Position numbers and translations under genes: made by a program
Notes under the pieces: model-generated
What the model was told of the DNA's origin: nothing
The model's input: the letters and a program-made list of their open reading frames with translations, nothing else
Database searches by the model: none
Part shown: positions 14,352 through 51,653 of the stretch, piece after piece
Layout of the letters: the number at the start of each line of letters is the position of its first letter
How positions within the stretch are numbered: position 1 is the first letter of the stretch
Source of the DNA: Gamaleyavirus AN24P2
Strand: one strand, 5' to 3'
Sequence record: OZ035810.1
DNA: 64,000 nt

Positions 14352-14415
14352 TTACACTGGCTTACTGTAGAGTAAGCTTCTTATATACGATATAAGTTTG
14401 AACAGGAAACATGCT

Positions 14416-17400
14416 ATGTCAACATTTGACCGTCTGGCAGGTTTCGCAGACAGCATCACTAATGCTAAGCAAGTCGATGTCTCTACTGCTACCTCTCAGA
14501 AGCAAGCTGCACAAGGGCAAAGCCCTTTCCAATTAACCCCAGAGAATGCTTACAATCTCCAAACTGGACGAGTAGGTAATTTAGGAATCGGTGCGTTCGA
14601 ACCAGGTTCCCTCCAAGCTGATTTCACTCAGGCTTCCCCATTAGAAATTCTTAATAAATATGGTAATGAGCAAGGTCTACAGATTCTTAATAGCCGAGCT
14701 AATGCTGCTGATGCTGTACGTCAGGACTTATCTAAACAACGTACTAACGCAGAAGCATTTGGTGATACTCTTTCTGGTGTTGGTCTTGGTGTTGCTAATA
14801 CCCTGGGGGGCATTGCTGCTCTTGGCACAGGTTTGGTCAATGATAATGCCGGGGCATCCATTGCTTCCGGGATGGATTGGTTGAATGAAGGTGTGCACAA
14901 TCTCCAGTCTGATGCACTGAATGTTACCCGTAAGGTTGTTCAGAATCAGAACCAGATTTCTGCTCAAAAGAACCAGAAACTTTACGAACAAGACATCAAA
15001 AATGGGGAGAGCAGCTTGGTTGCCTCCCTGTCTCGCATTGGTCGTGATGCTTTTGATTCTGTTGCTAATACACTTGATAACGGTATGGCTGCTACTGATG
15101 GGCTAAGTGAAGGTGTTGGTTCCCTCTTTACTGGTGGTCCACTTATCCGTGGTGTATCTGCACTCGGCAAAGTAATGGTAGGTGGTGATAAAGCCGTTAA
15201 GGGTATTACCTTAGCTGCTGAGTTAGGTTCTCGTCCTGCACAGGTTGCATTGTCTGCTGGTCGTGTTGCTGCACCTGCTATTGCAATTGGTGGTATGGAA
15301 GCTGGTGGTGCATACCAACAGACTGCTTCTGAAATCATGAAGATGTCACATCAAGAATTAGCAAGTAAGTCTCCTGTTTATCAACAACATATTGCTGATG
15401 GTTTATCTCCTGATGAAGCTCGTCGTCAGACTGCATCTGAAACAGGTATCATTGCTGCTGGCTTAACTGCTCCGGTTGCTGCTGCTACTGGTCCACTGGT
15501 ATCTAAATTTGAACTTAATCCACTTAAGGTAGGTTCACTGGTTGGTGCTGGTTCTAACATGCTGCGTGAAACTGTAGAAGAAGGTATCCAGTCTGGTACT
15601 AGTCAGTTTGCACAGAACAAAGCAATTCAAGGTAATGTAGATGCTAAACGTGACTTGCTTAAAGGTGTTGGTGAACAAGCAGGTCTTGGTGCACTTTACG
15701 GCTTCGGTAGTGCTGGGGTTGCTCAAGCTCCAGGTGCAACTGTTAAAGCTGTTGGTGCTACTGCTGGTCCAGCCCTTCGTACTACTTTAGCCGGTGCTTC
15801 CCTGGTTGGTAGTGCACTAGCAAAAGCTGCATCTCCTCTTACTAACATCCTGGTTCAACGTGGTGAAGAAGTTGCTAAACGAAATGAACAAGCATCCCCT
15901 GTAGCTGATGCTACGGTTAATGCTGCTGCACAGGAAGCTGCTGCTCAGGCAGAACAAGCACAAGCAACTGTACAGGAAGCAGTAGATGCAATGGATATTT
16001 CTCCGGAAGAGAAAGCTGCTGCTACCCAGTATGCTGCTGACTTAACTCAGGCAATGAAGTTTGACCCGGTAGAATTGGAACAAACTAACCCAGCAATCCG
16101 TGAAGCTGTTTCTGGTTCCACTAACCGTGTTGAAGCTATTCAGAAGATGGCTGACCTGGTTAATACTGCTGAGGATCCTAACGTTCAAATGGAAGCTGCA
16201 ATCCAGATGTATGACAATATCATGTCTATGGATAGCTTCATTAACCGTGACCCGGGTGCTCTGGCTAATCTGGAACAAGGTTCTCCTGCTGCTGCGATTG
16301 TAGACCAGTTCTCCGGTCTGATGGCTAACGTACAGAATACTCCGAAGGTACTCCGTGCATTTCGTGCCATCCATTCCATGATTCAGGAACAGGCTGAAGC
16401 GGGTAAATTGAAAGCTACTGAAGAAGCTAACCAAGCTCAGGCAAACAACATTGCTATGGCTGCTGATGTGTCTCCAGAAGTTCTGGATGTAGAATCAGTG
16501 AACATGGTTCTGAAGCACGCAAGTGAAGGTAAGATTACATTAGGGAATCGTCAGCGTGCTGCCCTGCAATCTGCTGCTGCTCTATTGCAAGGAGCACGAG
16601 AATTTGACGCTAAAGCAGAAGAACTGGGCTTACGTCCTCAAGACATTGTTAGTAAACAAATTAAAACCGACGAATCTCGTTCTAATGAAGGCCAGTACTC
16701 TGCGTTGCAACATGCTAAACGCATTCGTTCTGCGTACAACTCTGGTAACTTCGATTTGGCTTCCGCTTATCTCGACGACTTTATGAAGTTCGCCCAGCAC
16801 ATGCAGAATAAGGTCGGAGCGTTGAATGAGCATTTGATTTCTGGGAATGCGGATAAGAATAAGTCTGTCCATTATCAGGCTCTTACTCCCTCCCGTGAAT
16901 GGGTACGTAGTCGTACTGGCCTCGGTGTCAATCCGTATGATACCAAGTCTGTTAAGTTTGCCCAGCAAGTAGGACTGGAGGCCAAAACCGTAGCTGATAT
17001 TGTTAATGCACTTGCTACGGCTTACCCGGAGCTTAATGTTTCTCATGTTAAAGTTACTCCATTAGATTCACGTCTGGACAAGCCTGCTGCCCAGGTGGTT
17101 AAAGAGTTCCGTCAGGGCAATCTTGATGCTGCTCAATCCCAACAGACCAATGAACCAGTGAATCAGGTTGATGAAACTCCTGTTACAAAACAGGAACCAG
17201 TTACCCCTACTGTACAGACTAAACCCTCTGTTAGTGAAGCTGTTAAAACAGAACCTACTATTAAAGAGTCTAAACCACAGTCTGTAAAAGAACCTGAGAA
17301 CCAGTCCGAAAAGCAGGATGCTGCCATCACTAATGAGGATACCACTCAGGAAGTAGCTGAAACTAAAACGGAAATGGAAGCAGTGTTCCCTGTCTATAAC

Positions 17401-20400
17401 AATGACAAGACACCGAGCCAGTTCCTTAAAGCATTTGCTCTGCCGGAAGAACCTAAGACTCGTACCATTGGTTCTGAATCTCCTTTGACTGATGTTAAGC
17501 AAGCACTGTCTTCTGCTGCTCGCTTTGAAGCATTCACACAAAAAGAAAATAACGCTCTCACAAGTGATGTGATGAAACGTTATCAGGACTTACTGGGCTT
17601 TGGTGAAACTCTGAAGACTACTCTTTCTGACCGTCTGGCTAAGTTCCTTGCTAACAAAAATGTTGGTAAACGTTTTGCAGAAGGTACTGAAGCTAACCGT
17701 TGGGTAGGTGGTAAACTGCTGAATATCGTTGAACAAGACGGTGACACCTTTAAGTTCAATGACCAGTTGTTAGAGACTGCTGTACTTGCTGGTCTGCAAT
17801 GGCGACTAACTGCTACACAGAATGCTGCTGTTAAAGACATGAAAGACATAGCTGCTATTACTGGTGTAGAAGCATCCCTGTTACCTGAAGGTATTCTGGC
17901 TGAATTTGAGAATGCTCAGACTCTGGTTGAAGCTACTAGCTCACTGGCTCAAAAGATTGAATCCTACTGGGGTTTGAATCGTAATCCTAATGCACCACTG
18001 GGCTATACCAAGGGTATCCCAATGGCAATGGCTACAGAGATTCTGTCTTCCCTTATTGAGATGGGTGAAGTTAAAGAGTCTATGCTGGATGTGTCTGAAA
18101 TTGACCCAGCCTCCGATAAGACTGTAGGTCTGTACACCATTGAGAAGCTGGATGATAACGATGCCATTAACAATTTCCCTACTGCTATTGAGGAAGCTGT
18201 CCTCGTAGAACCAGAAGAGAAAATGTACTTTGGTGATGATATTCCTTCCGTGGCTCAAACTCAGTTACGTAATCCGGCTGTTAAGAATACCCCTGAACAG
18301 AAAGCTGCTCTTAAAGCAGAACAGGCTACTGAGTTCCGTGTACACATGCCTATGGTTAACTTCTATGAAGCATTAGGTCGTGACAACATTCTGGAACTGA
18401 TGGGTGCTGGTACGCTTAATCCTGAACTACTGAACGTAAACACTGCTAAATCACTGGAAGGTAAGAACCTGTCAGTGTCTATGGCATATGATTCCTTGTT
18501 TGGGGTAATCAATCAGGTTCAGGAACAGGAGAATGGACTGGATACTCCTATTCACTATGGTTATAACATGACCCGTGTAGGTCGTATGCAGATGCTTGGT
18601 AAGAATAACCCACAATCCAGTAAGCTGGTGCGTGAAGCAATTCTGCCAACCTTCTCTACTATTGACTTGAGTAATGAAAACAGCCAAACGTTCTCAGACT
18701 TCCAGTTAGGTCTGGCTCAGGCATTAGGCATCAAGGTACATAACATGTCCCGTGAAGCTATGTCTGAAAAGCTGACTAAAGCTCTGGAAGGTAACCTGAA
18801 ACCTGCTGTTGATATGATGGTTGAGTTTGATAAGTCTGGTCACTTACCAGTTGATGCAGTGGATATTCTGAAGACGTCTCTTGGTGGCGATAAATCCTTC
18901 GTAGCTCTTATGGCTCTTATGGAATATGCCCGTTACCTGAACAGTGATGACCGTGCCAACTTTAATACCCCACTGTACGTTGAAGCCGATGGTGTAACTA
19001 ACGGACCAATCAACGCAATGGTATTAATGACGGGTGGTAAGTTCACTTCAGACTGGGTTAAGAATACTGCTAAAGGTGGTCTGTTCTTTGGTAAAGCTGG
19101 TAAGACTATGAATGAACACCGTTCACAGGATGACAGTGTTGACTTGTATGAAGCATCTACCAACAGTCTGCAACAAGCTCTGAATGAGTTACGTACTACT
19201 TACCGTAACAACGTTCCGGTTATGAACCAGATGAATCATCTCCAAAAGTTAATGGACCTGTTCATTAAAGACTTTAACCTGAACGAAGACGGTACTCTGG
19301 ACCTGAAGCGTGGTATCGCTAAAAACCCACTGACTATTACCATCTATGGTTCCGGTGCTCGTGGTATTGCAGGCAAGATGGTTAGTGCAATTACTGATAC
19401 CATCTATGAACGCTTCAGTGACGTTCTGCAAGCTCGCGCTGCTGACCCTAGCATTTCCCCAGCTATGGCAATGTTTGGTAAAGAGGCTGCGTCTGAGACT
19501 GATGCTCAGGCTATGCTGGATACTTTCCTTACATCTATGGAAGCACTGACTGGTAATGTTCCAGTTATGCGTAAAGGTGAGCTGTCTATTCAACAAGTAG
19601 AAGGTGCTCTGACTGGTAAGTTAGACCCCCAGAAGTTTACTGTATCTGGTAATGCTCTGAAGAACCTGCAAGAGAACATGCTTCACTTGTTCGTTGAACC
19701 AATGCGTACTGGTATTCGAAATACTGTTGGTGAAGGTCTAATGCACTCTACTGAGAACTTGCAGAAGGCTACCCAGATTCAGTCTCTGGTATTGCAAGAC
19801 ATGTTCCAGCAAGCAGTACAGACTAAGCTGGCAGAAAAAGAAAAAGACCCAACATGGAAGAAGGGTGATTTCTTAACTCAGAAAGAACTGAACGAAATCC
19901 AGGAATCATTGTCTCCACTGGCTCCAATGATTGAGACTGGTTCGCAGACTTTCTACATTGCTGGTAGTGAGAATACTGACGTTGCTAACCAAGTACTGGC
20001 TACCAACTTAGATGACCGTATGCGTGTGCCAATGAGCATCTATGCTCCTTCACAGGCAGGTGTTGCAGGTATTCCATTTATGACCATTGGTACTGGCGAT
20101 GGCATGATGATGCAGACCCTTTCTACTATGAAAGGTGCTCCGAAGAATACCCTGAAAATCTTTGATGGTATGAACATTGGTATCAATGACATCACTGATG
20201 CAAGTCGTAAAGCTAACGAGGCTGTATATACTTCCTGGCAGGGGAATCCTATCAAGAATGTTTATGACTCCTTTGCTAAGTTCATGAAGAACGTAGACTT
20301 CAGCAAACTGTCCGATGAAACTAAACAGGCTATCGCTAAGTCTGCTTTGGAATATGACCAGCGTGAGGGTGCTACTGATGCCTTATTACGTGCAGGTGCT

Positions 20401-23400
20401 GAACAGATTGAGCGTAACTTGCGTAACATTGCTCTTGGTGTAGATATTCGCCATAAAGTAATGAACCAGGTACAGACTACTGTTGACCAGATGGCTGCTG
20501 TAGGTGCTCCTTATGTGAACAACGGTAAAATCTCTCTGGAAGGTCTGACTGTAGACCAGCAAGTAGCTAAGCTGAACGAATTGTTTGATGCTGAATTAAA
20601 CAAACGTCGTGATGCAGTACGTGCTGCTAAAGCAGAACCAGTGAAAGAAGTACCAGCAATTGAGCAGGTTGGTCGTGTACTGAAGTCTGGTGTACGTCTG
20701 CTGTCTAATACTGCTATCTCTAAGCTGGCTAAAGAGATGTCTCAGGAACAACAAGCAGTACTGAAAGAAGTACAGAAATCCCCTGCTGCTAAAGACTACA
20801 AGGTTGTCTATGGTACACCTGCCCAACTGGATGCTTACGCTATTGAGAAGAACATTACTCGCCCAGCACCGGAAGATATTGAAGCTGCTGAAGCAGGTAA
20901 TGCATACGGCTGGACTAACTTCGAAGATAAGACCATTTATCTAGTTACCCCTTCCTTAGAAACTCTGGTTCATGAATTGGTACATGCTTCTACTTTTGAA
21001 TCTGTACTGACTCACTATGAAGGTACTCCTAATGAAGCAGTTCAGAACATTGAAGACCTGATGAACCAGTTCCGTGCTCTGGATGTTAAGGATGAATCTC
21101 CGGCAGTACGTGAAGCGTATGCTGATGCACTTAATACCATTAATGGTCACTTGTCCAATGGATTCATTGAGCCATCAATGGCTAAAGCTGCTGCACTTAA
21201 CGAGTACATGGCTTGGGGCTTAACCAACCGTGAACTGATTAGTAAGCAGAAGAAAACCACTGCACTTAAGACTATGGTTCAGGCTGTGTATGAAGCAATC
21301 AAGCGTCTGGTATTTGGGCGTAAGAAAGCACCAGCTAATGCAGATGATATGTTCTCCGGCTTACTGTTTAACTCTGCTGTAGTAATGCGAGGACAAGCTC
21401 CTACTGCTGCTGTAGCTAAAGATACTACCCTGTTCCATAACAAAGCATACGGTGATAATACTCGTCTGGAAGAATTAGGAAAAACCTTCGATAAGTTAAT
21501 TACTGACTACATTGGTTCAGAACCAGTACAACAAGTAATTCGTAAAGGTAAGTTCTCTGATGCAGTAGTGAATGCAACTAAAGTAACCCGTGATGTTCAG
21601 GCTCATGGCTTCGCTATGAATATGCAGGAACAGCGTCTCTTTACTAACATTGTTGCTGCTCTGGCTACTGAGGCTGCTATTAACCCTGCTGCTTTGGCTC
21701 GTGCACAGGAATACTACACGCATGTTACTAAGAACCTGACTGTTGAAGCATTTATGGCTGACCCAGATAGTACTAACCCTGCTGACCGTTATTACGCTCA
21801 ACAGAAGTTCGATACCATCATGGGTGCTAACAATATTGAGTTTGATGCACAGGGACGTTCTTCCTTACTGCCTACCTTTGTTGGGCTGGCAATGGTAAGT
21901 GAAGAAGTACGTAAGGTACTGGCTGATATTCCTGTTATGAAAGCAGATAAGCAATCCGGTAATACAGTTGATGCAATGCTGACTAACATTGGTACTGCTG
22001 CAATGGCTAGTCTGAATGCTCGTGTAGCAGGTGATACCAAAGCTACTAATGTACAGGAAGGTATGGATGCACTGGCTCAAACAATCATGCAGACTAGCCT
22101 TAATGCACAGTCCTTTTATGATTCTGTTGCTACTCCTAGTGGTAATGCTATTGACCGTGCTAACCAGTATCTGGTGGACTCTATTGATGTATTGTCTACC
22201 CGTGCTTTAGAAGGTGCTCGTGAAGTTGCAGCTAATACCAAGAACCCGTTGGTTAAAGGTGCTGCTCATGCTGCACAACTGATTGCTGCTATTGCTACAG
22301 AGAAGAATGGTGAAATCGTAGCCGAAGGAGTTATGGCTGCAATGAACCAGGGTAAGGTATGGCAACCTTTCCATGACCTGGTTAATGACTTAACTGGTCG
22401 TACTAAGAGCAATGCTTCTGTGTATGATTTGATTAAGGCAGTTCGTGCACAGGTACAGGCTGACCGTCAACAATTCCGTGAACATTTGCCTACTACTATC
22501 GCATCTAAGTTCAGCCGTAAGCTGACTAATGATGAGTGGAAAGCAATGCACACTGGCATGGGTAAAACTGACTTGGCTGTCCTGCGTGACACTATGTCTT
22601 TGGCTGAAATCCGTGATTTGCTGTCGGACCAAAAGATTGTTGACCGTGAAGTGAATAAGCTGGAAGCAGATTTGCAGAAGCAAGCTGGACGTAACTGGCC
22701 TCTGATTAGTCGTAAATCTAAGCAACTGGCTCAGTTTATGATTAATGGTACAGTTGGTAATAACTTGCTGCGTAATGCTACTGCAATTTCTCGTTTACTG
22801 GGTGAACGTAAGACTACTAGTTCTATTGTAGATGTAGCTAAACTGGATAAACTGATTACCCTGTATGCACTGGAAGCAATGAGTAATACTGACCGTGAGA
22901 TGCTATCTTCACTGGCTCAAACAGAAGTTGATGGGATTGATTTTGCTACTTCTTACCTGGTTGGTCAGCGTAAAGATGAAATGGCTAAAGCTAAGTCTGA
23001 CATGCGTGCAACCCTGAACCAGTACAAAGGTTACATTCCTGGTGAGACTAAACAAGGTGTTAACCTGATTGTTGCTGAAGACAGTCAATTTGCTGATTTG
23101 ATTGAGAAGTCCTATGTGCGACTGGGTACTTATCAGGGTAGCTCTGCTAATCGTGGTCCAGCACGTAGTTACTACTTTGCACCAGTACAGGCACAGGCTC
23201 CATTCTCACAGGGTATCTTACAGAACGTTCGTAATACTGCTGGTGGTGTAGACCTTGGTACAGGCTTTACGATGGGTACAATGGTAGCTGGTCGTATCAC
23301 TGACAAGCCTTCCGTAGACCGTATCACTAAAGCACTGGCTCGTGGTGAACGTGGTAATGAACCACTGCTGCCTGTGTATGATGACAAAGGTAATGTAGTT

Positions 23401-24774
23401 GCCTATGAGCAATCTATTGACCCTAACATGCTGAAGCACATTGAGGGTGAGAACCATCTTGCTCGTGCAATTGGTGTATGGCGTGGTCGTCAGGTAGAGG
23501 AAGCTAAGGCCCAGCGTTTCAACGATATGCTGATTGAAAATCTGCATAGCATGTACGAGAACGACATTAAAATGTCTGCCTCTAATAAGTCCCAGTATGT
23601 GAACCTTCTTGGTTCTAAACTGGACCCAGTAACTGCTGATGCTCTTAAACTGATGAACACTGAAACACGTCAGAAAGCAGAAAGCCTGTTTGGACCCGGT
23701 GAACTGTGGGTTCGTCGTGATATGCTGAATGATGCACTAGGCTATCGTGCAGCTTCTGTAGGTGATGCCTGGTCTGGCAATTCTCGTTGGTCCCCAGAAA
23801 CACTGGATACCTTCAAGAAAGCTATGTTAGGTGTATTTGGCAACCGTGCTTACAAGTACGTAATGGGTGGTGAGAACCTGGTTCAGAACTTAGTTAAAGA
23901 AGCTAAGACTCTGATTGTAGTTAAGTCAGTAGTTGTACCTGCTGTTAACTTCTTAGCTAACCTTTACCAGATGGTTGGTCGTGGTGTACCTGTTAAGAAC
24001 ATTGCTAAGAGCATTCCACAGAAGACTGCTGAGATTAACCAGTACCTGAAATCTCGTCTGCGTCAGGTAGATGCAGAAGCAGAATTACGAGCAGCTACTA
24101 ATCCGAACCAGATTCGTAAACTTAAAGCTGAGATTCAGTCCATTACTGATAGTCATAAGCGTATGAGTATCTGGCCTCTATTAGAAGCTGGGGAGTTCTC
24201 TTCAATTGCAGATGCTGGTATTGGACGTGATGATATCCTGATTACTGAGGGTAAACTCCATGAATACATGGATAAGCTGGCTGATAAGTTACCTAAGTCA
24301 GTACGTACTGCTGGTCGTTATGCACTTATCACTAAGGATACTGCTTTGTTCCAGGGTATCCAGAAAACGGTTGAGTACTCTGACTTTATCGCTAAAGCAA
24401 TCATCTATGATGACTTAACTCAGCGTAAAGGTAAGACACGTGAAGAAGCACTTGGACGTGTAACTGAAGAGTTCATTAACTATGACCGTCTGCCGGGACG
24501 TTTCCGTGGCTATATGGAAAGTGTTGGTCTTATGTGGTTCTACAACTTTAAGATTCGTTCTGCAAAAGTTGCAGTGTCCATGATTCGTAATAACCCGGTC
24601 CATGCAGCAATGGCGATGTTGGCTCCAACTCCTACCATGTTTGGTAACGTTGGCTTACCTATTCAGGACAACATCTTTAGCATTGCTGCTAAGGATAGTC
24701 TGGATTACTCTTGGGGCTTTGGACAAGGGCTTCGTGCTCACAACCTGAACCCTTGGATGAACCTGGTAAACTAA
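14416..24774 (+). CDS. virion-encapsidated RNA polymerase (giant vRNAP)
   Basis: Single ORF of about 10.3 kb; track start 14398 is TTG, first ATG at 14416 preceded by AGGAAA; a protein of this size in this position is diagnostic of N4-like phages. Confidence 0.85.
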   Translation: MSTFDRLAGFADSITNAKQVDVSTATSQKQAAQGQSPFQLTPENAYNLQTGRVGNLGIGAFEPGSLQADFTQASPLEILNKYGNEQGLQILNSRANAADAVRQDLSKQRTNAEAFGDTLSGVGLGVANTLGGIAALGTGLVNDNAGASIASGMDWLNEGVHNLQSDALNVTRKVVQNQNQISAQKNQKLYEQDIKNGESSLVASLSRIGRDAFDSVANTLDNGMAATDGLSEGVGSLFTGGPLIRGVSALGKVMVGGDKAVKGITLAAELGSRPAQVALSAGRVAAPAIAIGGMEAGGAYQQTASEIMKMSHQELASKSPVYQQHIADGLSPDEARRQTASETGIIAAGLTAPVAAATGPLVSKFELNPLKVGSLVGAGSNMLRETVEEGIQSGTSQFAQNKAIQGNVDAKRDLLKGVGEQAGLGALYGFGSAGVAQAPGATVKAVGATAGPALRTTLAGASLVGSALAKAASPLTNILVQRGEEVAKRNEQASPVADATVNAAAQEAAAQAEQAQATVQEAVDAMDISPEEKAAATQYAADLTQAMKFDPVELEQTNPAIREAVSGSTNRVEAIQKMADLVNTAEDPNVQMEAAIQMYDNIMSMDSFINRDPGALANLEQGSPAAAIVDQFSGLMANVQNTPKVLRAFRAIHSMIQEQAEAGKLKATEEANQAQANNIAMAADVSPEVLDVESVNMVLKHASEGKITLGNRQRAALQSAAALLQGAREFDAKAEELGLRPQDIVSKQIKTDESRSNEGQYSALQHAKRIRSAYNSGNFDLASAYLDDFMKFAQHMQNKVGALNEHLISGNADKNKSVHYQALTPSREWVRSRTGLGVNPYDTKSVKFAQQVGLEAKTVADIVNALATAYPELNVSHVKVTPLDSRLDKPAAQVVKEFRQGNLDAAQSQQTNEPVNQVDETPVTKQEPVTPTVQTKPSVSEAVKTEPTIKESKPQSVKEPENQSEKQDAAITNEDTTQEVAETKTEMEAVFPVYNNDKTPSQFLKAFALPEEPKTRTIGSESPLTDVKQALSSAARFEAFTQKENNALTSDVMKRYQDLLGFGETLKTTLSDRLAKFLANKNVGKRFAEGTEANRWVGGKLLNIVEQDGDTFKFNDQLLETAVLAGLQWRLTATQNAAVKDMKDIAAITGVEASLLPEGILAEFENAQTLVEATSSLAQKIESYWGLNRNPNAPLGYTKGIPMAMATEILSSLIEMGEVKESMLDVSEIDPASDKTVGLYTIEKLDDNDAINNFPTAIEEAVLVEPEEKMYFGDDIPSVAQTQLRNPAVKNTPEQKAALKAEQATEFRVHMPMVNFYEALGRDNILELMGAGTLNPELLNVNTAKSLEGKNLSVSMAYDSLFGVINQVQEQENGLDTPIHYGYNMTRVGRMQMLGKNNPQSSKLVREAILPTFSTIDLSNENSQTFSDFQLGLAQALGIKVHNMSREAMSEKLTKALEGNLKPAVDMMVEFDKSGHLPVDAVDILKTSLGGDKSFVALMALMEYARYLNSDDRANFNTPLYVEADGVTNGPINAMVLMTGGKFTSDWVKNTAKGGLFFGKAGKTMNEHRSQDDSVDLYEASTNSLQQALNELRTTYRNNVPVMNQMNHLQKLMDLFIKDFNLNEDGTLDLKRGIAKNPLTITIYGSGARGIAGKMVSAITDTIYERFSDVLQARAADPSISPAMAMFGKEAASETDAQAMLDTFLTSMEALTGNVPVMRKGELSIQQVEGALTGKLDPQKFTVSGNALKNLQENMLHLFVEPMRTGIRNTVGEGLMHSTENLQKATQIQSLVLQDMFQQAVQTKLAEKEKDPTWKKGDFLTQKELNEIQESLSPLAPMIETGSQTFYIAGSENTDVANQVLATNLDDRMRVPMSIYAPSQAGVAGIPFMTIGTGDGMMMQTLSTMKGAPKNTLKIFDGMNIGINDITDASRKANEAVYTSWQGNPIKNVYDSFAKFMKNVDFSKLSDETKQAIAKSALEYDQREGATDALLRAGAEQIERNLRNIALGVDIRHKVMNQVQTTVDQMAAVGAPYVNNGKISLEGLTVDQQVAKLNELFDAELNKRRDAVRAAKAEPVKEVPAIEQVGRVLKSGVRLLSNTAISKLAKEMSQEQQAVLKEVQKSPAAKDYKVVYGTPAQLDAYAIEKNITRPAPEDIEAAEAGNAYGWTNFEDKTIYLVTPSLETLVHELVHASTFESVLTHYEGTPNEAVQNIEDLMNQFRALDVKDESPAVREAYADALNTINGHLSNGFIEPSMAKAAALNEYMAWGLTNRELISKQKKTTALKTMVQAVYEAIKRLVFGRKKAPANADDMFSGLLFNSAVVMRGQAPTAAVAKDTTLFHNKAYGDNTRLEELGKTFDKLITDYIGSEPVQQVIRKGKFSDAVVNATKVTRDVQAHGFAMNMQEQRLFTNIVAALATEAAINPAALARAQEYYTHVTKNLTVEAFMADPDSTNPADRYYAQQKFDTIMGANNIEFDAQGRSSLLPTFVGLAMVSEEVRKVLADIPVMKADKQSGNTVDAMLTNIGTAAMASLNARVAGDTKATNVQEGMDALAQTIMQTSLNAQSFYDSVATPSGNAIDRANQYLVDSIDVLSTRALEGAREVAANTKNPLVKGAAHAAQLIAAIATEKNGEIVAEGVMAAMNQGKVWQPFHDLVNDLTGRTKSNASVYDLIKAVRAQVQADRQQFREHLPTTIASKFSRKLTNDEWKAMHTGMGKTDLAVLRDTMSLAEIRDLLSDQKIVDREVNKLEADLQKQAGRNWPLISRKSKQLAQFMINGTVGNNLLRNATAISRLLGERKTTSSIVDVAKLDKLITLYALEAMSNTDREMLSSLAQTEVDGIDFATSYLVGQRKDEMAKAKSDMRATLNQYKGYIPGETKQGVNLIVAEDSQFADLIEKSYVRLGTYQGSSANRGPARSYYFAPVQAQAPFSQGILQNVRNTAGGVDLGTGFTMGTMVAGRITDKPSVDRITKALARGERGNEPLLPVYDDKGNVVAYEQSIDPNMLKHIEGENHLARAIGVWRGRQVEEAKAQRFNDMLIENLHSMYENDIKMSASNKSQYVNLLGSKLDPVTADALKLMNTETRQKAESLFGPGELWVRRDMLNDALGYRAASVGDAWSGNSRWSPETLDTFKKAMLGVFGNRAYKYVMGGENLVQNLVKEAKTLIVVKSVVVPAVNFLANLYQMVGRGVPVKNIAKSIPQKTAEINQYLKSRLRQVDAEAELRAATNPNQIRKLKAEIQSITDSHKRMSIWPLLEAGEFSSIADAGIGRDDILITEGKLHEYMDKLADKLPKSVRTAGRYALITKDTALFQGIQKTVEYSDFIAKAIIYDDLTQRKGKTREEALGRVTEEFINYDRLPGRFRGYMESVGLMWFYNFKIRSAKVAVSMIRNNPVHAAMAMLAPTPTMFGNVGLPIQDNIFSIAAKDSLDYSWGFGQGLRAHNLNPWMNLVN

Positions 24775-47269: not shown

Positions 47270-47298
47270 TTAAAAAAGCCCACGGGTTAGGTGGGCTT
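47270..47298 (-). terminator. rho-independent terminator
   Basis: agcccac-gggttag-gtgggct hairpin with A-run on +. Confidence 0.5.
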
Positions 47299-47370: not shown

Positions 47371-47649
47371 TTACTCTGCTTTACTGCCACCATTGGTTTG
47401 AACAACAGTTACATTTGTAACCTGGTTCTGACCTTTGTTGGACAGTGACCAAATCAGTGCCACTACCCAGAATACCAGTGACCAGCCTAATACGATATTA
47501 AGCACACCAATACCCCACTTAGAGGCATGGCCTCGTGCAAAAGCAATGATAGTAGGGATAAGGTACACAGCTAATACAAATAACAGAACAAGGATTGCTG
47601 CTAAAGATTCCATGATGGTTCCTATGTGAGGTTGAGTTAGTTTCTTCAC
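47371..47649 (-). CDS. small membrane protein
   Basis: 92 aa; hydrophobic segments LAAILVLLFVLAVYLIPTIIAF and VLNIVLGWSLVFWVVALIW. Confidence 0.5.
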   Translation of the reverse strand: MKKLTQPHIGTIMESLAAILVLLFVLAVYLIPTIIAFARGHASKWGIGVLNIVLGWSLVFWVVALIWSLSNKGQNQVTNVTVVQTNGGSKAE

Positions 47650-47920: not shown

Positions 47921-48427
47921 TTATTTTGAAGGTCTAGCGGCTACTGGTTTGTTTTCCTGGTCCTGATACTTGCCATTGTAATTAGCAGGTTCCTGAACCA
48001 GATGAAATAATACTTGAGCTATCCCAGCACCAGCCGGGATATGCAATTTCTTACGACCATGATAGACCAGTTCGAGAGTAAGATACCCTTTCCATCCTGG
48101 TTCTATTACAGTATTGAACACTGATAATGCACGTCTTGCCCAGGTAGACTTATCGTGAACGATAGCTACACAGGACGGGGACATGTTGAACTTCTCAATT
48201 GCTGAAGCCAAGGCGAACTTACCGAGATGGCGTGATACTTGATTCCCATCAATGACTTTCACCATTGGAATCAACCCAAATAAGCGATAGAAGGTAATAT
48301 CTTGTTTGATACGAATATCGTAACCAGCTTCACCCAATCCATAGCTTACGCCATGCTCTGATACCTTACGGTCTGGGACATCCAGCAACTGAGATGAACG
48401 GTATAGGGAATTACCATTAACAACCAT
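47921..48427 (-). CDS. dcd: dCTP deaminase (dUTPase-fold)
   Basis: 168 aa; IEPGWKGYLTLELVYHG and KYQDQENKP parallel E. coli Dcd IDPGWSGCIVLEFYNSG and KYRNQQG. Confidence 0.6.
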   Translation of the reverse strand: MVVNGNSLYRSSQLLDVPDRKVSEHGVSYGLGEAGYDIRIKQDITFYRLFGLIPMVKVIDGNQVSRHLGKFALASAIEKFNMSPSCVAIVHDKSTWARRALSVFNTVIEPGWKGYLTLELVYHGRKKLHIPAGAGIAQVLFHLVQEPANYNGKYQDQENKPVAARPSK

Positions 48428-49602
48428 TATTTCATTCCTTTAGGGATATGAACTACCTCCCCAAAAGGTACGGTAGCATTGGGATTATTCAGAACACACC
48501 AGATGACGGGGATATCAAATGGTAATTCTTCCATTGGATGAACATACATATCAGAGAATATGATTGCAGCGGTTGGCTTATTCTTAATAATCCAATCGCG
48601 TACTGGTTCTAGGTTTGTACCACCCCGACCGGTAATCTTAATTTCCTCAAAAGTATCTTCTTCAGTGATGTCTATTTCTTCCTGGATAACATCGTCGAAG
48701 GTAATTAGGGACATCTTCTTAGGGTTGAATTGGCTCTTAACGTAGGCAACCTCTGAGTTAAAACGCAGAGAGTCTGCACTACTAATAGAACCAGATACAT
48801 CTTCAAAGTAAGCCAAGTGTCGTAAACGTCCTTCATCATCTTCCATGGAAGGTAGGTAGATGTCAGTGTAACGACGGTTAGGTCTGGCCCACGTATAATG
48901 AGTATCGTCGATGTCAGTAAAGAAGTTCATCAGGACTTCTTGCCAAGGAACTACTGGTTTAAGGAATTGGGTAATAACCTCTTCCATACGCCCAGCACCT
49001 TTACCGGGCATCATTCCACCAGCCATCTTCTGGCTTTGCATCGCACGTACTACGTTGTTGACGACAGCACCCTGGGACTGCCCCGAAGAGGGGGATTTCA
49101 TGTCGCCAGCAAGACCTGCTCCAGCACCCCCTGACGGCTTCTGCCTTTTCTGAGGATTCTTCATCAGGTCATCGTAGATGTCTTCTTCGACCCATCCTTT
49201 ATATTGGGGGTCTTTGCAAATGCCTTCATTGATACCAGTGAACTTGTAACCATCTTCTTCTAACTGAAGGTTAATGAAGTGGTCACATGCCTGGTTCCAG
49301 ACTTCTGGGTCACGGCTTCCACGACGAATGCCATGCAGATATGCCACATGCCAGAGTTCGTGCATTAACACTGTTTCTCTGGCATCTGGACACATCCAGA
49401 TAAAGAAATCTGGATTGAAATGGAGTTCTATCCCATCAGTACATGCAGTGGGGCAATCCTCACGTTTCCATGAGAACTTAAGGCTACATAGTAATGAACC
49501 AAAGAACGCAGCAGACTTGCCTAGGAAAGCCTGAGCTTGAATACGATCATATTCGCGCATTAGTTGTTCATCACTAAGGGAGTGCTGAGGAAATTGGTTC
49601 AT
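48427..49602 (-). CDS. VWA-domain protein with N-terminal HExxH metallopeptidase-like domain
   Basis: 391 aa; HELWHVAYLHG motif N-terminal; partner of adjacent MoxR-type ATPase. Confidence 0.55.
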   Translation of the reverse strand: MNQFPQHSLSDEQLMREYDRIQAQAFLGKSAAFFGSLLCSLKFSWKREDCPTACTDGIELHFNPDFFIWMCPDARETVLMHELWHVAYLHGIRRGSRDPEVWNQACDHFINLQLEEDGYKFTGINEGICKDPQYKGWVEEDIYDDLMKNPQKRQKPSGGAGAGLAGDMKSPSSGQSQGAVVNNVVRAMQSQKMAGGMMPGKGAGRMEEVITQFLKPVVPWQEVLMNFFTDIDDTHYTWARPNRRYTDIYLPSMEDDEGRLRHLAYFEDVSGSISSADSLRFNSEVAYVKSQFNPKKMSLITFDDVIQEEIDITEEDTFEEIKITGRGGTNLEPVRDWIIKNKPTAAIIFSDMYVHPMEELPFDIPVIWCVLNNPNATVPFGEVVHIPKGMK

Positions 49603-49606
49603 TGTT

Positions 49607-50659
49607 TTATCCGTGAATGTAGCGAGAGATGTTAGCAGCAGCCTTACGCCATTCAGGGGTAGCCTGAAGTTCTGGTAATGCTCTGCCTACTGTACGGAAG
49701 TACAGAATCTTATGGGTGAACGTTTTAAAACGCTCAATGTACTGAAGAACATCAGCGAAGTTTTCTTCAGTGGTTTTGTTAGCCAGATGGTTAACGGTAG
49801 CCCAACACAGGTTATTATCTTCCGGTAGTGCACAGCCCAGCGGGTCTTTGACTACTTTCTCAATCGTAATCATACGATTATACACCTGTGTAAACTGAAC
49901 AAACTCTGTAGCCTTACCGGCAGTAACGTGGCCTGCATAGTAGATAGAATCTTCATCTGGCAGAGCACCTTCAGGACGGTTCTTGAGGTCTTTGTTAACA
50001 AAGTCCCAGGTACGAGGGCAGCAGAACGTTTTGTTCTTATGGGCTGGGTCGAAGTCATGCAGATAACCAGGGTTAGCATGTAGGAATGCAACCAGACGTT
50101 CATCCCATTCTTGAGGAATCATTACGTCTTCAACAAAGATGTCGAAGTTAAGTTCCATTTCGAAGTGGACAACACGAGACTGCATTGCAGTACCCAGTGG
50201 GTTAACAATTGCACGGTCAGTAGCTTTGTTACCTGCACAGATAATCATCACATTAGGATGAAGTTTTTTCTGACCAGTCATACGGTCTAGAATCAGTTTG
50301 TATGCAGCAGCTATTACTTCTTTGCGAGCAGATGGGAACTCGTCAAGGAATAAGAGCCAGCCATTATACCCTTCTGGTATTTCATCCCCCTCAATAGGGA
50401 ATAAGTCAGCGAATGGGATAAACTCTGCACGGTCACCATTACGGAATGGTAAACCAGATAAGTCTTCCGGGGCAGAAGTAGACAGACGATGGTCTATCAG
50501 CTTCATACCAAATTCTTCTGCAACAGAACGAATAATTGCAGATTTACCCATGCCTGGTGATGAAGTCAGGAACGGTACGTTACCTGCTTGTAGGGCACGA
50601 ATAATAAAGTTACGGGCCTGACGTGTATTACATACGGTCAGTGAGTCAATGCTCGCCAT
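49607..50659 (-). CDS. AAA+ ATPase, MoxR-like
   Basis: 350 aa; Walker A SSPGMGKSA, Walker B LFLDEF. Confidence 0.7.
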   Translation of the reverse strand: MASIDSLTVCNTRQARNFIIRALQAGNVPFLTSSPGMGKSAIIRSVAEEFGMKLIDHRLSTSAPEDLSGLPFRNGDRAEFIPFADLFPIEGDEIPEGYNGWLLFLDEFPSARKEVIAAAYKLILDRMTGQKKLHPNVMIICAGNKATDRAIVNPLGTAMQSRVVHFEMELNFDIFVEDVMIPQEWDERLVAFLHANPGYLHDFDPAHKNKTFCCPRTWDFVNKDLKNRPEGALPDEDSIYYAGHVTAGKATEFVQFTQVYNRMITIEKVVKDPLGCALPEDNNLCWATVNHLANKTTEENFADVLQYIERFKTFTHKILYFRTVGRALPELQATPEWRKAAANISRYIHG

Positions 50660-50693
50660 TTACTTACTCTCCTAAAGTTAATGGAATTATTAA

Positions 50694-51020
50694 TTAAGAT
50701 TTAATACATGGGTATGCTGTATCAATCGCCAACAGAACCATGTCTGATGGTACTTTTACTGCATTAACCTTTCGGTCGTACAGAATAATAGTGGCTACTT
50801 TGTCAAAGACATTTCCCAGCTTCATATTATCTGGTACGCAGTTTTTACCTGCTTCTACACCCATAGTAACCATACCCATGAAGTAACCCTGGTTCACAAA
50901 GTTTGAATTATTAGCTTTGTAGTCAGCAGCAGCTTCCAACAAAGTTGCACGACTGGATGCTTGAGCACCGAATGACAAAACTGATAAAGCTACTAGGACA
51001 ACAGCAATTAAAGTTTTCAT
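50694..51020 (-). CDS. secreted small protein (signal peptide)
   Basis: 108 aa; N-terminus MKTLIAVVLVALSVLSFGAQA is a signal peptide. Confidence 0.5.
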   Translation of the reverse strand: MKTLIAVVLVALSVLSFGAQASSRATLLEAAADYKANNSNFVNQGYFMGMVTMGVEAGKNCVPDNMKLGNVFDKVATIILYDRKVNAVKVPSDMVLLAIDTAYPCIKS

Positions 51021-51619: not shown

Positions 51620-51653
51620 CCAAAAAAAGACCTCCCTTCAATAGGGAGGTCAA
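51620..51653 (-). terminator. rho-independent terminator
   Basis: gacctccc-ttcaata-gggaggtc hairpin with 7-A run on +. Confidence 0.6.

What the first reader, a model, noticed from the sequence alone, without database searches (positions are those of the whole stretch)
48427..50659. MoxR-type AAA+ ATPase paired with a VWA protein carrying an HExxH metallopeptidase-like domain
These tightly linked genes form a chaperone-like module of unknown role in phage infection. The HELWH motif suggests proteolytic or metal-dependent activity coupled to ATPase remodelling, which could act in virion maturation or host takeover.
Basis: partly seen in the sequence, partly recalled or inferred. Interest (0 to 1): 0.55.

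Follow-up and report, generated by a model that had tools for sequence, protein, structure and literature searches.

The report
Known N4-type ATPase/VWA-peptidase gene pair
These two adjacent genes are the conserved gp24/gp25 pair of N4-like phages, whose function is still unknown: an ATP-driven motor and a partner that fuses a protein-binding VWA domain to a zinc-protease-like domain. The same pair also sits on conjugative plasmids, so it more likely works inside the infected cell than in building virus particles.

Summary
On the minus strand, 49607-50659 encodes a 350-aa AAA+ ATPase. Its nearest folds are dynein, midasin, CbbQ and NorQ, which places it in the MoxR/AAA_5 clade. 48427-49602 encodes a 391-aa protein with Pfam DUF2201_N (zincin-like, HELWH) and DUF2201 (a VWA fold with a complete MIDAS motif).

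The window is a Gamaleyavirus (Schitoviridae). The genes are orthologues of coliphage N4 gp24/gp25, two of the 14 published core genes of N4-like phages, expressed as middle genes. The same architecture has already been described in jumbo phages. The feature is therefore already known; only its function is open.

What this analysis adds:
- The pair also occurs in rV5-like and jumbo phages, on about 100 large plasmids, and in bacterial chromosomes.
- In the plasmid and chromosomal copies it is usually a three-gene module, with a DUF3150-like gene in the middle. It lies beside type IV secretion, ssb, primase, RecT, ParB, methyltransferase and PRTRC genes.
- ATPase, MIDAS and metal-ligand residues are nearly universal. 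The catalytic Glu is lost in one bacterial clade.

I favour an intracellular capture-remodel-cleave machine that serves the establishment or replication of mobile elements, with an unknown substrate, over virion maturation. No experiment yet settles this. Interest is modest.

The parts
49607..50659 (-). gp24-like AAA+ ATPase of the MoxR/AAA_5 clade, 350 aa. It has an AAA+ core (about residues 26-190) and a family-specific C-terminal helical domain (about residues 191-350).
50540..50554 (-). Walker A motif, GMGKS (K39/S40).
   Evidence: K39 is conserved in 43/44 homologues, with one alignment gap.
50444..50497 (-). Conserved insert motif IDHRLSTSAPEDLSGLPF between strands beta2 and beta3 (the helix-2 insert region).
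   Evidence: D56, H57, R58, T61, P64, D66, G69 and P71 are invariant. The motif aligns with the equivalent midasin segment. The loop has low confidence in the model.
50339..50344 (-). Walker B motif, DE (D106/E107).
50669..50673 (-). Shine-Dalgarno AGGAG, 9 nt upstream of the ATPase ATG.
48427..49602 (-). gp25-like protein, 391 aa: an N-terminal zincin-like domain, a linker, and a C-terminal VWA domain.
   Evidence: ORF. Pfam DUF2201_N plus DUF2201. N4 gp25 orthologue. AF2 model pLDDT 78.
48844..49554 (-). DUF2201_N putative metallopeptidase domain (residues 17-253).
   Evidence: Pfam 7e-57. A domain-only profile hits an M48 peptidase (3c37, E=0.0023), the MJ1213 minigluzincin (0.005), and BepA, HtpX and Ste24.
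49348..49362 (-). HELWH (H81, E82, H85). H90 (49333-49335) and D107 (49282-49284) are further conserved candidate metal ligands.
48871..48891 (-). WARPNRR, the family signature motif (WxRPNRR) in the segment between the peptidase core and the VWA domain. Its role is unknown.
   Evidence: The motif residues are conserved in 53-59 of 59 homologues (R240 is the least conserved, 53/59). The segment has low pLDDT (residues 232-256). Coordinates verified.
48445..48816 (-). VWA-like domain (DUF2201, residues 263-386).
48787..48801 (-). MIDAS motif DVSGS (D268, S270, S272), completed by T329 (48616-48618) and D351 (48550-48552).
   Evidence: D268, S270 and S272 are conserved in 59/59 homologues. Coordinates verified.
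51629..51651 (-). Terminator-like hairpin upstream, marking the start of the transcription unit that holds the pair.
   Evidence: A terminator is annotated at the equivalent place in PhAPEC7.
47276..47298 (-). Terminator-like hairpin downstream. The unit it closes contains four small genes (the last Tai4-like), the ATPase, the VWA-peptidase, dCTP deaminase, a 67-aa ORF and an Imm-like gene.

Best explanation
The two genes are the orthologues of coliphage N4 gp24 and gp25.

gp24 is an AAA+ ATPase of the MoxR/dynein-midasin/CbbQ-NorQ clade and presumably forms a ring. gp25 is its VWA-domain partner.

By analogy with the characterised MoxR-VWA pairs (CbbQ-CbbO, NorQ-NorD, midasin), I propose this sequence of events:
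1. The MIDAS site of gp25 captures an acidic residue of a target protein.
2. ATP hydrolysis by gp24 remodels or extracts that target.
3. The N-terminal zincin-like domain, fused to the adaptor, cleaves the target or a neighbouring chain.

I place this activity inside the infected cell during the middle (replication) phase, not in the virion. I regard it as a general establishment or replication function of mobile elements. Its most likely substrate is a host or element protein that sits on, or acts on, the incoming or replicating DNA.

What is shown: domain identities, intact catalytic motifs, tight gene coupling, core-gene status, and distribution on phages and conjugative elements.

What is inferred: complex formation, peptidase activity, timing in this particular phage, and the class of substrate.
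For: Identity:
- Orthology and synteny with N4 gp24/gp25.
- Listed among the 14 core genes and described as middle transcripts (PMC4193335).

ATPase:
- Sequence hit to the midasin ring.
- Sub-threshold AAA_5, bpMoxR and AAA_3 matches.
- K39, N144, R162 and R216 are kept in every aligned homologue of 44. Walker B D106 is kept in 43/44 (one Glu). E107 is Glu in 37 and Asp in 7.

gp25:
- DUF2201_N plus DUF2201.
- MIDAS 59/59; H81, H85, H90 and D107 in about 95%.
- Zincin relationship to M48 peptidases and minigluzincins.

Coupling:
- 4-nt gap between the genes, in one terminator-bounded unit.
- The ATPase lies upstream on the same strand in nearly all of 61 genome loci.

Non-virion role:
- Both proteins hit about 95-134 plasmid records at 26-31% identity over more than 90% of their length.
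- A three-gene module with a DUF3150-like middle gene is present in 34/69 loci.
- It lies next to T4SS and PRTRC genes, and next to ssb, RecT, toprim, DUF4942 and cytosine methyltransferase, and ParB genes.
- None of the four middle-region virion proteins that RPP1/RLP1 mass spectrometry identified near the gp24/gp25 homologues has an N4 homologue.

Indispensability:
- Homing-endonuclease/intron insertions at the two most conserved ATPase motifs in relatives. This is typical of indispensable genes.
Against: - I found no biochemical or genetic data for any member. The CRISPRi-ART study did not screen N4 genome-wide, and the literature searches found nothing functional.
- The jumbo-phage orthologue of the ATPase (phAPEC6 gp265c) appears in a virion mass-spectrometry list, and the pair there lies among structural genes.
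- The catalytic Glu is replaced by T, L or A in 9 bacterial homologues while the metal ligands stay. Proteolysis is therefore not universal in the family.
- The plasmid homologues are only about 27-30% identical and carry a third gene that phages lack, so their function may differ.
- I did not map the oriT-relative position of the module on the plasmids.
Confidence: 0.5

Rival explanations
1. A virion-assembly chaperone plus maturation protease. The MoxR-VWA pair would help fold or assemble structural proteins, and the zincin domain would process them. This is the proposal of Iyer et al. 2021 for jumbo phages and one of the first reader's two options.
For: - Published proposal, with the precedent of a MoxR-vWA system required for tail development in Acidianus two-tailed virus (PMC7824862; PMC7159879).
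- In Asteriusvirus the pair lies between genes annotated as structural.
- phAPEC6 gp265c (MoxR ATPase) was detected in virion mass spectrometry with 6 peptides and 19% coverage.
Against: - The same mass-spectrometry list contains thymidylate synthase, so carry-over of abundant non-structural proteins is likely. The excerpt of the list returned for jumps from gp262c to gp265c, so gp264c (the gp25 homologue) does not appear in it.
- In N4-like phages the genes are middle transcripts, lie next to dCTP deaminase and ThyX, and are far from the late structural block.
- The four middle-region virion proteins reported near the gp24/gp25 homologues in RPP1/RLP1 are other proteins, with no N4 homologue.
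- The module is common on conjugative plasmids and ICE-like elements that have no virion genes nearby.
Confidence: 0.2
2. A dedicated counter-defence effector. The machine would recognise and destroy a host immunity protein, such as a restriction or abortive-infection component. This would resemble the metalloprotease-bearing plasmid anti-restriction protein ArdC (recalled from memory, not tested here).
For: - The neighbours in the window are host-interaction genes: a Tai4/Rap1a-like gene and an Imm-like gene, with rIIA/rIIB nearby in relatives.
- The plasmid neighbours include orphan methyltransferases, ssb and ParB-like genes, which are typical of establishment regions.
- MoxR-vWA-peptidase ternary systems are an established theme in conflict systems (PMC7159879; PMC12839542).
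Against: - Counter-defence genes are normally variable accessory genes. This pair is a family-wide core gene set with strongly conserved sequence, and it is found across many bacterial phyla.
- No PADLOC hit.
- It is not mentioned among leading-region anti-defence genes in PMC11541004.
Confidence: 0.15
3. A metal-cofactor delivery or insertion machine rather than a protease. The His/His/His/Asp site of the N-domain would hold a metal ion that the MoxR-VWA pair inserts into a client enzyme, as NorQ-NorD, CoxD-CoxE and CobS-CobT do.
For: - The metal ligands H81, H85, H90 and D107 are kept in about 95% of homologues. The general-base Glu is replaced (HTxxH in all 7 Desulfobacter-type loci, plus HLxxH and HAxxH).
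- The closest solved ATPase relatives include NorQ and CbbQ, and VWA_CoxE is a secondary Pfam hit in 4/30 members.
- The pair sits next to genes for metalloenzyme-dependent nucleotide metabolism.
Against: - Glu82 is invariant in all 30 Schitoviridae sequences and in the rV5-like, jumbo-phage and plasmid members.
- The domain is homologous to true peptidases, covering the edge strand and the HExxH helix of M48 peptidases and minigluzincins.
- There are no CobS, CobT or chelatase family matches.
- No conserved candidate client enzyme co-occurs across phages and plasmids.
Confidence: 0.1

Closest known systems
Coliphage N4 gp24 (AAA ATPase) and gp25 (vWFA protein), core genes of N4-like phages (Schitoviridae)
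   Same: Orthologues. They share gene order (ATPase, VWA protein, dCTP deaminase), sizes, and position between the RNAPII genes and the ThyX/rII region. They are listed as core genes 24 and 25, with function 'unknown' / 'vWFA domain' (PMC4193335; PMC2784036).
   Different: Nothing essential differs. This window is a Gamaleyavirus copy, 100% identical to AN24P2.
MoxR AAA+ plus metallopeptidase-vWA pair of group 2.2 jumbo phages (Iyer et al. 2021, PMC7824862)
   Same: The same two-gene architecture and the same interpretation as a chaperone-cochaperone pair with a fused N-terminal metallopeptidase. Jumbo-phage members are detected directly with the window proteins.
   Different: The jumbo-phage proteins are longer (441 and 474 aa) and lie among structural genes. 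The authors did not discuss N4-like phages or plasmid copies in the passages I retrieved.
CbbQ-CbbO, NorQ-NorD and midasin (characterised MoxR/AAA_5-VWA remodelling systems)
   Different: Those VWA partners carry no peptidase domain, and their clients are defined (Rubisco, NO reductase, pre-60S factors). The window ATPase does not reach the curated thresholds of AAA_3 or AAA_5 and has its own C-terminal helical domain.
vWA-MoxR-VMAP / iSTAND ternary conflict systems (Kaur et al. 2020, PMC7159879; PMC12839542)
   Same: MoxR, plus a vWA protein fused to a peptidase effector, plus a third component. The bacterial and plasmid version of the present family also has three genes.
   Different: Here the third gene is DUF3150-like, not VMAP or iSTAND, and it is absent from the phage. 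The peptidase is an N-terminal zincin rather than a trypsin or caspase. The carriers are mobile elements, not cellular defence islands.
M48-family and minigluzincin zinc peptidases (3c37, BepA, HtpX, Ste24, MJ1213)
   Same: These are the only solved relatives found for the N-domain by profile search. The alignment covers the strand before the HExxH helix and the helix itself.
   Different: The similarity is weak (E 0.002-0.25). The third-ligand arrangement here is HExxHxxxxH followed by WNxAxDxxIN, which is specific to DUF2201_N. The match was not confirmed by a fold search, because whole-protein searches were dominated by the VWA domain.
Animal CLCA proteins (zincin domain followed by VWA). 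This resemblance is recalled from memory.
   Same: The same domain order. The CLCA1 VWA domain is the top Foldseek hit.
   Different: CLCA proteins are secreted, cleave themselves and have no AAA+ partner. I did not test the relationship between the peptidase domains.

Membership tests
N4 gp24/gp25 orthologous pair (Schitoviridae core genes) | Sequence similarity to N4 gp24 and gp25, with conserved order and position in an N4-like genome. | tested here: met
   92-95% nucleotide identity to Gamaleyavirus genomes. PhAPEC7 annotation notes 'similar to gp24/gp25 from N4' with the same flanking genes. The giant vRNAP ORF 14371-24771 is in the same window (ORF list).
MoxR-type AAA+ ATPase (helix-2-insert clade; Pfam AAA_3/AAA_5) | AAA+ core with Walker A, Walker B, sensor 1 and arginine residues. 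| tested here: met
   GMGKS, DE, N144, R162 and R216 are invariant.
MoxR-type AAA+ ATPase (helix-2-insert clade; Pfam AAA_3/AAA_5) | Nearest structural relatives are MoxR, CbbQ, NorQ, dynein or midasin modules. | tested here: met
MoxR-type AAA+ ATPase (helix-2-insert clade; Pfam AAA_3/AAA_5) | Insert between beta2 and beta3 (the helix-2 insert) with a conserved motif. | tested here: inconclusive
   There is a segment of about 40 residues (59-99) with the invariant motif DHRxSTxxPxDxxGxP, which aligns with midasin. The model is low-confidence there (pLDDT below 50 for residues 66-80), so the hairpin geometry is not established.
MoxR-type AAA+ ATPase (helix-2-insert clade; Pfam AAA_3/AAA_5) | Reaches the curated score of a MoxR-family model (Pfam AAA_3/AAA_5, or NCBIfam). 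| tested here: not met
   AAA_5 scores 14.9 bits against a cut-off of 22. AAA_3 matches 5/30 members, with a best E-value of 0.006. No NCBIfam hit. It is a distinct family within the clade, phrog_1297.
MoxR-type AAA+ ATPase (helix-2-insert clade; Pfam AAA_3/AAA_5) | Encoded next to a VWA-domain partner. | tested here: met
   4-nt gap in the window. The pairing is kept in nearly all loci. Distant DUF2201 proteins pair with a PGAP-named 'MoxR family ATPase' on Synechocystis pSYSA.
VWA domain with MIDAS | Rossmann-like VWA fold. | tested here: met
VWA domain with MIDAS | The DxSxS...T...D metal-ion-dependent adhesion site. | tested here: met
   D268, S270, S272, T329 and D351 are present. They are conserved in 59/59, 59/59, 59/59, 58/59 and 55/59 homologues respectively.
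Zincin metallopeptidase (Pfam DUF2201_N) | HExxH on a helix preceded by an edge strand, and homology to known zincins. | tested here: met
   Pfam 7e-57. HELWH lies in helix 72-87. Profile hits to M48 peptidases and minigluzincins.
Zincin metallopeptidase (Pfam DUF2201_N) | An identified third zinc ligand. | tested here: inconclusive
   H90 (HExxHxxxxH) and D107 are both conserved in about 95% or more of homologues. Which of them binds the metal cannot be decided without coordinates or a solved relative.
Zincin metallopeptidase (Pfam DUF2201_N) | Peptidase activity. | not testable with these tools
   I found no biochemical data. The catalytic Glu is lost in 9 bacterial homologues.
vWA-MoxR ternary conflict system | A third component (VMAP or iSTAND) encoded with the pair. 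| tested here: not met
   There is no third gene in the window, and no homologue of the bacterial middle gene anywhere in the 64 kb. The bacterial middle gene is DUF3150-like.
HNH endonuclease (the label of phrog_1314 and of many GenBank records) | An HNH/His-Me finger domain. | tested here: not met
   Only DUF2201_N and DUF2201 are found in 30/30 members, with no HNH family even at E<=5. The label probably comes from homing endonucleases inserted next to or within these genes in some relatives.
Cobaltochelatase CobS/CobT | Matches to CobS/CobT family models. | tested here: not met
   None in Pfam or NCBIfam.

The most novel reading that the evidence does not exclude
The gp24-gp25 module could be one ancient, universal 'establishment' machine shared by lytic phages (N4-like, rV5-like, jumbo) and conjugative plasmids/ICEs. 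In the conjugative elements it has a DUF3150-like third subunit. On this reading it uses ATP-driven remodelling plus a zinc site to remove or cleave a conserved protein that blocks the use of newly entered mobile DNA. That would make it a new functional class common to transduction-independent phage infection and conjugation.
Probability: 0.25. Interest if true: 0.7.

Novelty: already known. Interest (0 to 1): 0.3.

Why it matters
gp24 and gp25 are two of only 14 genes shared by all N4-like phages, and no function has been assigned to them. The peptidase-VWA family is also very large: about 22,000 clusters at 50% identity, 15,031 of them with E<=1e-10.

Learning what the machine acts on would fill a gap in the N4 infection cycle. 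If the plasmid copies do the same job, it would also reveal a function common to phages and conjugative elements.

There is a practical point too. Many database records label the gp25 homologue 'HNH endonuclease', which is wrong.

For this window itself, the finding is an ordinary instance of a known, annotated gene pair.

Tried and rejected
- **NCBIfam and PADLOC scans:** no hits.
- **Single-sequence and profile searches of PDB sequences:** only weak midasin, PspF and integrin hits.
- **Search for the bacterial middle gene (c2, DUF3150-like) in the window:** nothing.
- **Literature:**
  - The term DUF2201 occurs in only four papers. Judging by their titles and abstracts, none is a functional study, and I did not open them.
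  - DUF3150 is named only in one speculative preprint.
  - No N4 gp24/gp25 genetics were found.
  - CRISPRi-ART screened T4, T5, SUSP1 and PTXU04 genome-wide, but not N4.
  - The 2026 N4 virion study has no held supplements and does not mention gp24 or gp25.
  - The leading-region anti-defence paper mentions neither VWA nor related terms.
- **HNH endonuclease label:** rejected, as there is no HNH domain.
- **CobS/CobT chelatase identity:** rejected, as there are no family matches.
- **Promoters:** sigma-70-like promoter hits in the region are fewer than in shuffled controls (7 against 19), so they were not used.
- **Reinterpreted hits:**
  - A 'plasmid' hit in Acinetobacter (NZ_CP110465) is an N4-like phage genome, not a plasmid context.
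  - The best-scoring MAG hits on roughly 69-75 kb contigs (L002, L005, L008) are probably binned phage contigs.
Full report
**1. The observation**

The window region 48427-50659 holds two minus-strand ORFs, exactly as described.
- 49607-50659 encodes a 350-aa protein.
- 48427-49602 encodes a 391-aa protein.

They are separated by 4 nt (TAA aaca ATG). The second gene's stop overlaps the start of a dCTP deaminase gene (TAATG). A good Shine-Dalgarno sequence (AGGAG) precedes the first gene.

Terminator-like hairpins at 51629-51651 and 47276-47298 bracket one minus-strand unit that contains the pair. This matches the terminators annotated in the relative PhAPEC7.

**2. Which genome and which genes**

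The stretch is 100% identical to Gamaleyavirus AN24P2 and 92-95% identical to about 55 G7C/PhAPEC7-type coliphages (Schitoviridae, Enquatrovirinae). In PhAPEC7 the two genes are annotated as similar to coliphage N4 gp24 and gp25, with the same neighbours. RNAPII subunits lie upstream, and dCTP deaminase, ThyX and rIIA/rIIB lie downstream.

Comparative genomics lists N4 genes 24 ('unknown') and 25 ('vWFA domain') among the 14 core genes of all N4-like phages and calls them middle transcripts (PMC4193335; PMC2784036).

**3. The ATPase**

Curated models see only a generic AAA domain (PF00004, 26 bits). AAA_5, bpMoxR and AAA_3 match below threshold, in 26, 8 and 5 of 30 family members respectively. 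NCBIfam and PADLOC give nothing.

Sequence searches of solved structures also find the midasin ring, with an alignment that runs through the conserved segment HRLSTSAPEDLSG. Walker A (GMGKS), Walker B (DE), N144, R162 and R216 are invariant among 30 relatives. In 44 distant homologues they change only conservatively: Ser/Thr at position 40 and Asp/Glu in Walker B.

'MoxR-type' is therefore right at the level of the clade. The protein is nonetheless its own family (phrog_1297), with a private C-terminal helical domain of about 160 residues.

**4. The partner protein**

Pfam finds DUF2201_N ('putative metallopeptidase', 7e-57) and DUF2201 ('VWA-like', 1e-33).

The MIDAS residues D268, S270, S272, T329 and D351 are all present.

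A profile of the N-domain alone, built from phage, plasmid and chromosomal members, weakly matches an M48 peptidase (E=0.0023), the minigluzincin MJ1213 (E=0.005), and BepA, HtpX and Ste24. The match runs across the strand and the HExxH helix.

The family signature is HExxHxxxxH...R...WNxAxDxxIN, plus a near-universal WxRPNRR motif before the VWA domain.

The frequent database label 'HNH endonuclease' (phrog_1314 and many GenBank records) has no support. No HNH domain is detected in any of 30 members.

**5. Distribution**

tblastn finds the partner protein in 689 phage records and the ATPase in 823. Most are Schitoviridae. Others are:
- rV5-like phages, where the two genes are about 4 kb apart near rIIA/rIIB;
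- Asteriusvirus and other jumbo phages, where they are adjacent;
- PVP-SE1-like, phiTE-like and Aeromonas phages.

A profile search of 1.84 billion representative proteins returns 21,950 hits with E<=0.001 and 15,031 with E<=1e-10. This is a very large family.

In one-genome-per-species bacterial contigs, 61 loci were recovered. In nearly all of those with enough upstream sequence, the gp24-like ATPase lies upstream on the same strand.

In 34 of 69 loci, a third gene of 300-350 aa lies immediately upstream of the peptidase-VWA gene, usually between it and the ATPase gene. UniRef names several of its relatives 'DUF3150 domain-containing'. DUF3150 is also the only Pfam family that recurs among its members: 6 of 17, with a best E-value of 5.6e-5. 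The window has no homologue of this gene.

**6. Context outside phages**

The two proteins hit 95 and 134 plasmid records respectively. The hosts include Burkholderia, Paraburkholderia, Cupriavidus, Rhodococcus, Streptomyces and Synechocystis. Of the 95 records with the peptidase-VWA protein, 30 are typed conjugative and 28 mobilisable.

| Element | Context of the module |
|---|---|
| pBMC401 and a Cupriavidus megaplasmid | The trio lies between a PRTRC cassette and VirB/Tra type IV secretion genes |
| Metagenomic contigs | The trio abuts VirB11-, VirB3-, VirB4- and TrbL-like genes |
| A Simplicispira conjugative plasmid | It is embedded among PD-(D/E)XK nuclease, RecT, ssb, toprim, DUF4942 and cytosine methyltransferase genes |
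| A Rhodovastum plasmid | It lies next to a DUF3991-toprim gene, a zeta toxin and ParB |
| Synechocystis pSYSA | A distant DUF2201 protein is paired with a PGAP-named 'MoxR family ATPase' |
| Acidobacterial and Bryobacteraceae chromosomes | Neighbours include an SNF2-like helicase, a DUF4942-methyltransferase and a Mom-family protein |

None of these contexts contains virion genes.

**7. Residue conservation across the whole family**

- MIDAS residues D268, S270 and S272 are kept in 59/59 homologues.
- H81, H85, H90 and D107 are kept in about 95%.
- The ATPase residues K39, N144, R162 and R216 are kept in every aligned homologue. Walker B varies only between Asp and Glu.
- The catalytic Glu of HExxH is Thr in all seven Desulfobacter-type loci, and Leu or Ala in two others. 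The Desulfobacter-type loci also lack the middle gene.
- All phage and plasmid members keep the Glu.

**8. What it most likely does**

The anatomy is that of a MoxR-VWA remodelling pair in which the adaptor carries its own zincin domain. By analogy with CbbQ-CbbO, NorQ-NorD and midasin, the MIDAS site would bind an acidic residue of a client. The ATPase ring would supply mechanical work. The zincin site would then cut the client or a neighbouring chain.

The new information here bears on where this happens. Four observations argue for an intracellular function tied to the establishment or replication of mobile DNA rather than to virion construction:
- The genes have middle-gene placement beside nucleotide-metabolism genes.
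- None of the four middle-region virion proteins that RPP1/RLP1 mass spectrometry found near the gp24/gp25 homologues has an N4 homologue.
- The module recurs on conjugative elements, beside ssb, primase, RecT, ParB, methyltransferase and T4SS genes.
- The pair is a core gene set, and mobile introns or homing endonucleases have inserted at the two most conserved motifs of the ATPase gene in relatives. This suggests an indispensable role rather than an accessory counter-defence role.

I give this reading about 0.5. The substrate is unknown. Complex formation, protease activity and timing in this phage are all inferred.

**9. Rival explanations**

- **Virion assembly or maturation (about 0.2).** This is the proposal of Iyer et al. 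2021. It is supported by the archaeal-virus precedent, the structural-gene neighbourhood in Asteriusvirus, and detection of the phAPEC6 ATPase in a virion mass-spectrometry list. That list also contains thymidylate synthase, so carry-over is possible.
- **A dedicated counter-defence protease (about 0.15).** This fits the neighbourhood but not the core-gene status.
- **A metal-insertion machine without proteolysis (about 0.1).** This is suggested by the loss of the Glu while the ligands are retained in one clade. It is contradicted by the invariant Glu in phages and by homology to true peptidases.

**10. Novelty and interest**

The feature is real but already known:
- The genes are annotated in close relatives.
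- They are recognised as N4 gp24/gp25.
- Their domains are in Pfam.
- The combined architecture has been described and interpreted in the literature.

The wider observations made here are leads for the open question of function. They are the DUF3150-like third gene, the conjugative-element contexts and the clade lacking the catalytic Glu. They do not change the classification of this window. I score interest at 0.3.

Noticed in passing
L079:1977-3911 (Escherichia phage U1G) and L078:1501-3421 (Shigella phage pSb-1): In close relatives the ATPase gene is split by mobile insertions at its two most conserved motifs. In U1G the split is at Walker B (the exon-1 ORF ends WLLFL|N), followed by an annotated 'HNH homing endonuclease # Phage intron'. 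In pSb-1 the split comes after STSAPEDL in the insert motif, with a sub-threshold Rfam group I intron hit at L078:2220-2509 (26.8 bits against a gathering score of 50, E=0.0013). tblastn still recovers the whole protein in two pieces, so these look like splicing elements rather than gene decay. The window copy is uninterrupted.
   Followed up: partly
window 50694-51020 (-): The gene just upstream of the ATPase encodes a 108-aa protein with a signal peptide. It has a weak Rap1a/Tai4 match (type VI secretion amidase immunity; Pfam E=0.0012, below cut-off) and is annotated 'tai4' in several relatives. A phage-borne T6SS immunity protein would be an unusual host-protection gene.
   Followed up: no
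window 47371-47649 (-): A small membrane protein matches the PHROG 'immunity to superinfection' family (phrog_1039, 3.7e-31). It is the last gene of the same transcription unit.
   Followed up: no
window 48427-49602 (-) and many GenBank relatives: phrog_1314 and many deposited genomes label the gp25 homologue 'HNH endonuclease'. No HNH domain is detectable in any of 30 members. The label probably spread from homing endonucleases inserted nearby in some genomes.
   Followed up: yes
L022, L027, L028, L034, L035, L047, L054 (Desulfobacter/Desulfobacula); also L019 and L020: In these bacterial homologues the HExxH glutamate is replaced (HTxxH, HLxxH, HAxxH), while all metal-ligand and MIDAS residues stay. 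The Desulfobacter clade also lacks the DUF3150-like middle gene and mostly has a private downstream gene of about 160 aa.
   Followed up: partly
window 48871-48891 (-): The motif WxRPNRR, between the peptidase core and the VWA domain, is conserved in 53-59 of 59 homologues from phages, plasmids and chromosomes (R240 is the least conserved). It falls in a low-confidence part of the model (residues 232-256). It may be a docking or regulatory segment.
   Followed up: partly
L064 (NZ_CP110465.1, Acinetobacter baumannii 'plasmid' pRBH2-3, 75 kb): This PLSDB 'plasmid' carries an N4-type RNA polymerase gene, the ATPase and the VWA protein with small genes and an HNH endonuclease between them. Its size is that of a Presley-like N4 phage. 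It looks like a phage genome deposited as a plasmid.
   Followed up: no
L002 (MAG 'archaeon isolate PL23a_bin.95', 69 kb contig); L005 and L008 (73-75 kb contigs): Contigs of N4-like genome size, with gp24/gp25 at 32-78% identity to the window, are filed under archaeal or bacterial MAGs or isolates. They are probably phage contigs that were binned or co-assembled with cellular genomes.
   Followed up: no
L075:1066-3890 (phAPEC6 gp264c/gp265c): The jumbo-phage ATPase orthologue (gp265c, 'MoxR ATPase') is in the published phAPEC6 virion mass-spectrometry list (6 peptides, 19% coverage). The returned excerpt of the list jumps from gp262c to gp265c, so the adjacent gp25-like gp264c does not appear in it. 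Thymidylate synthase is also listed, so this may be carry-over.
   Followed up: partly
L079:795-1969 (Escherichia phage U1G): The gp25 homologue is annotated as two overlapping CDSs (167 and 224 aa, both labelled 'HNH endonuclease'). This suggests a frameshift or a sequencing error in that record.
   Followed up: no
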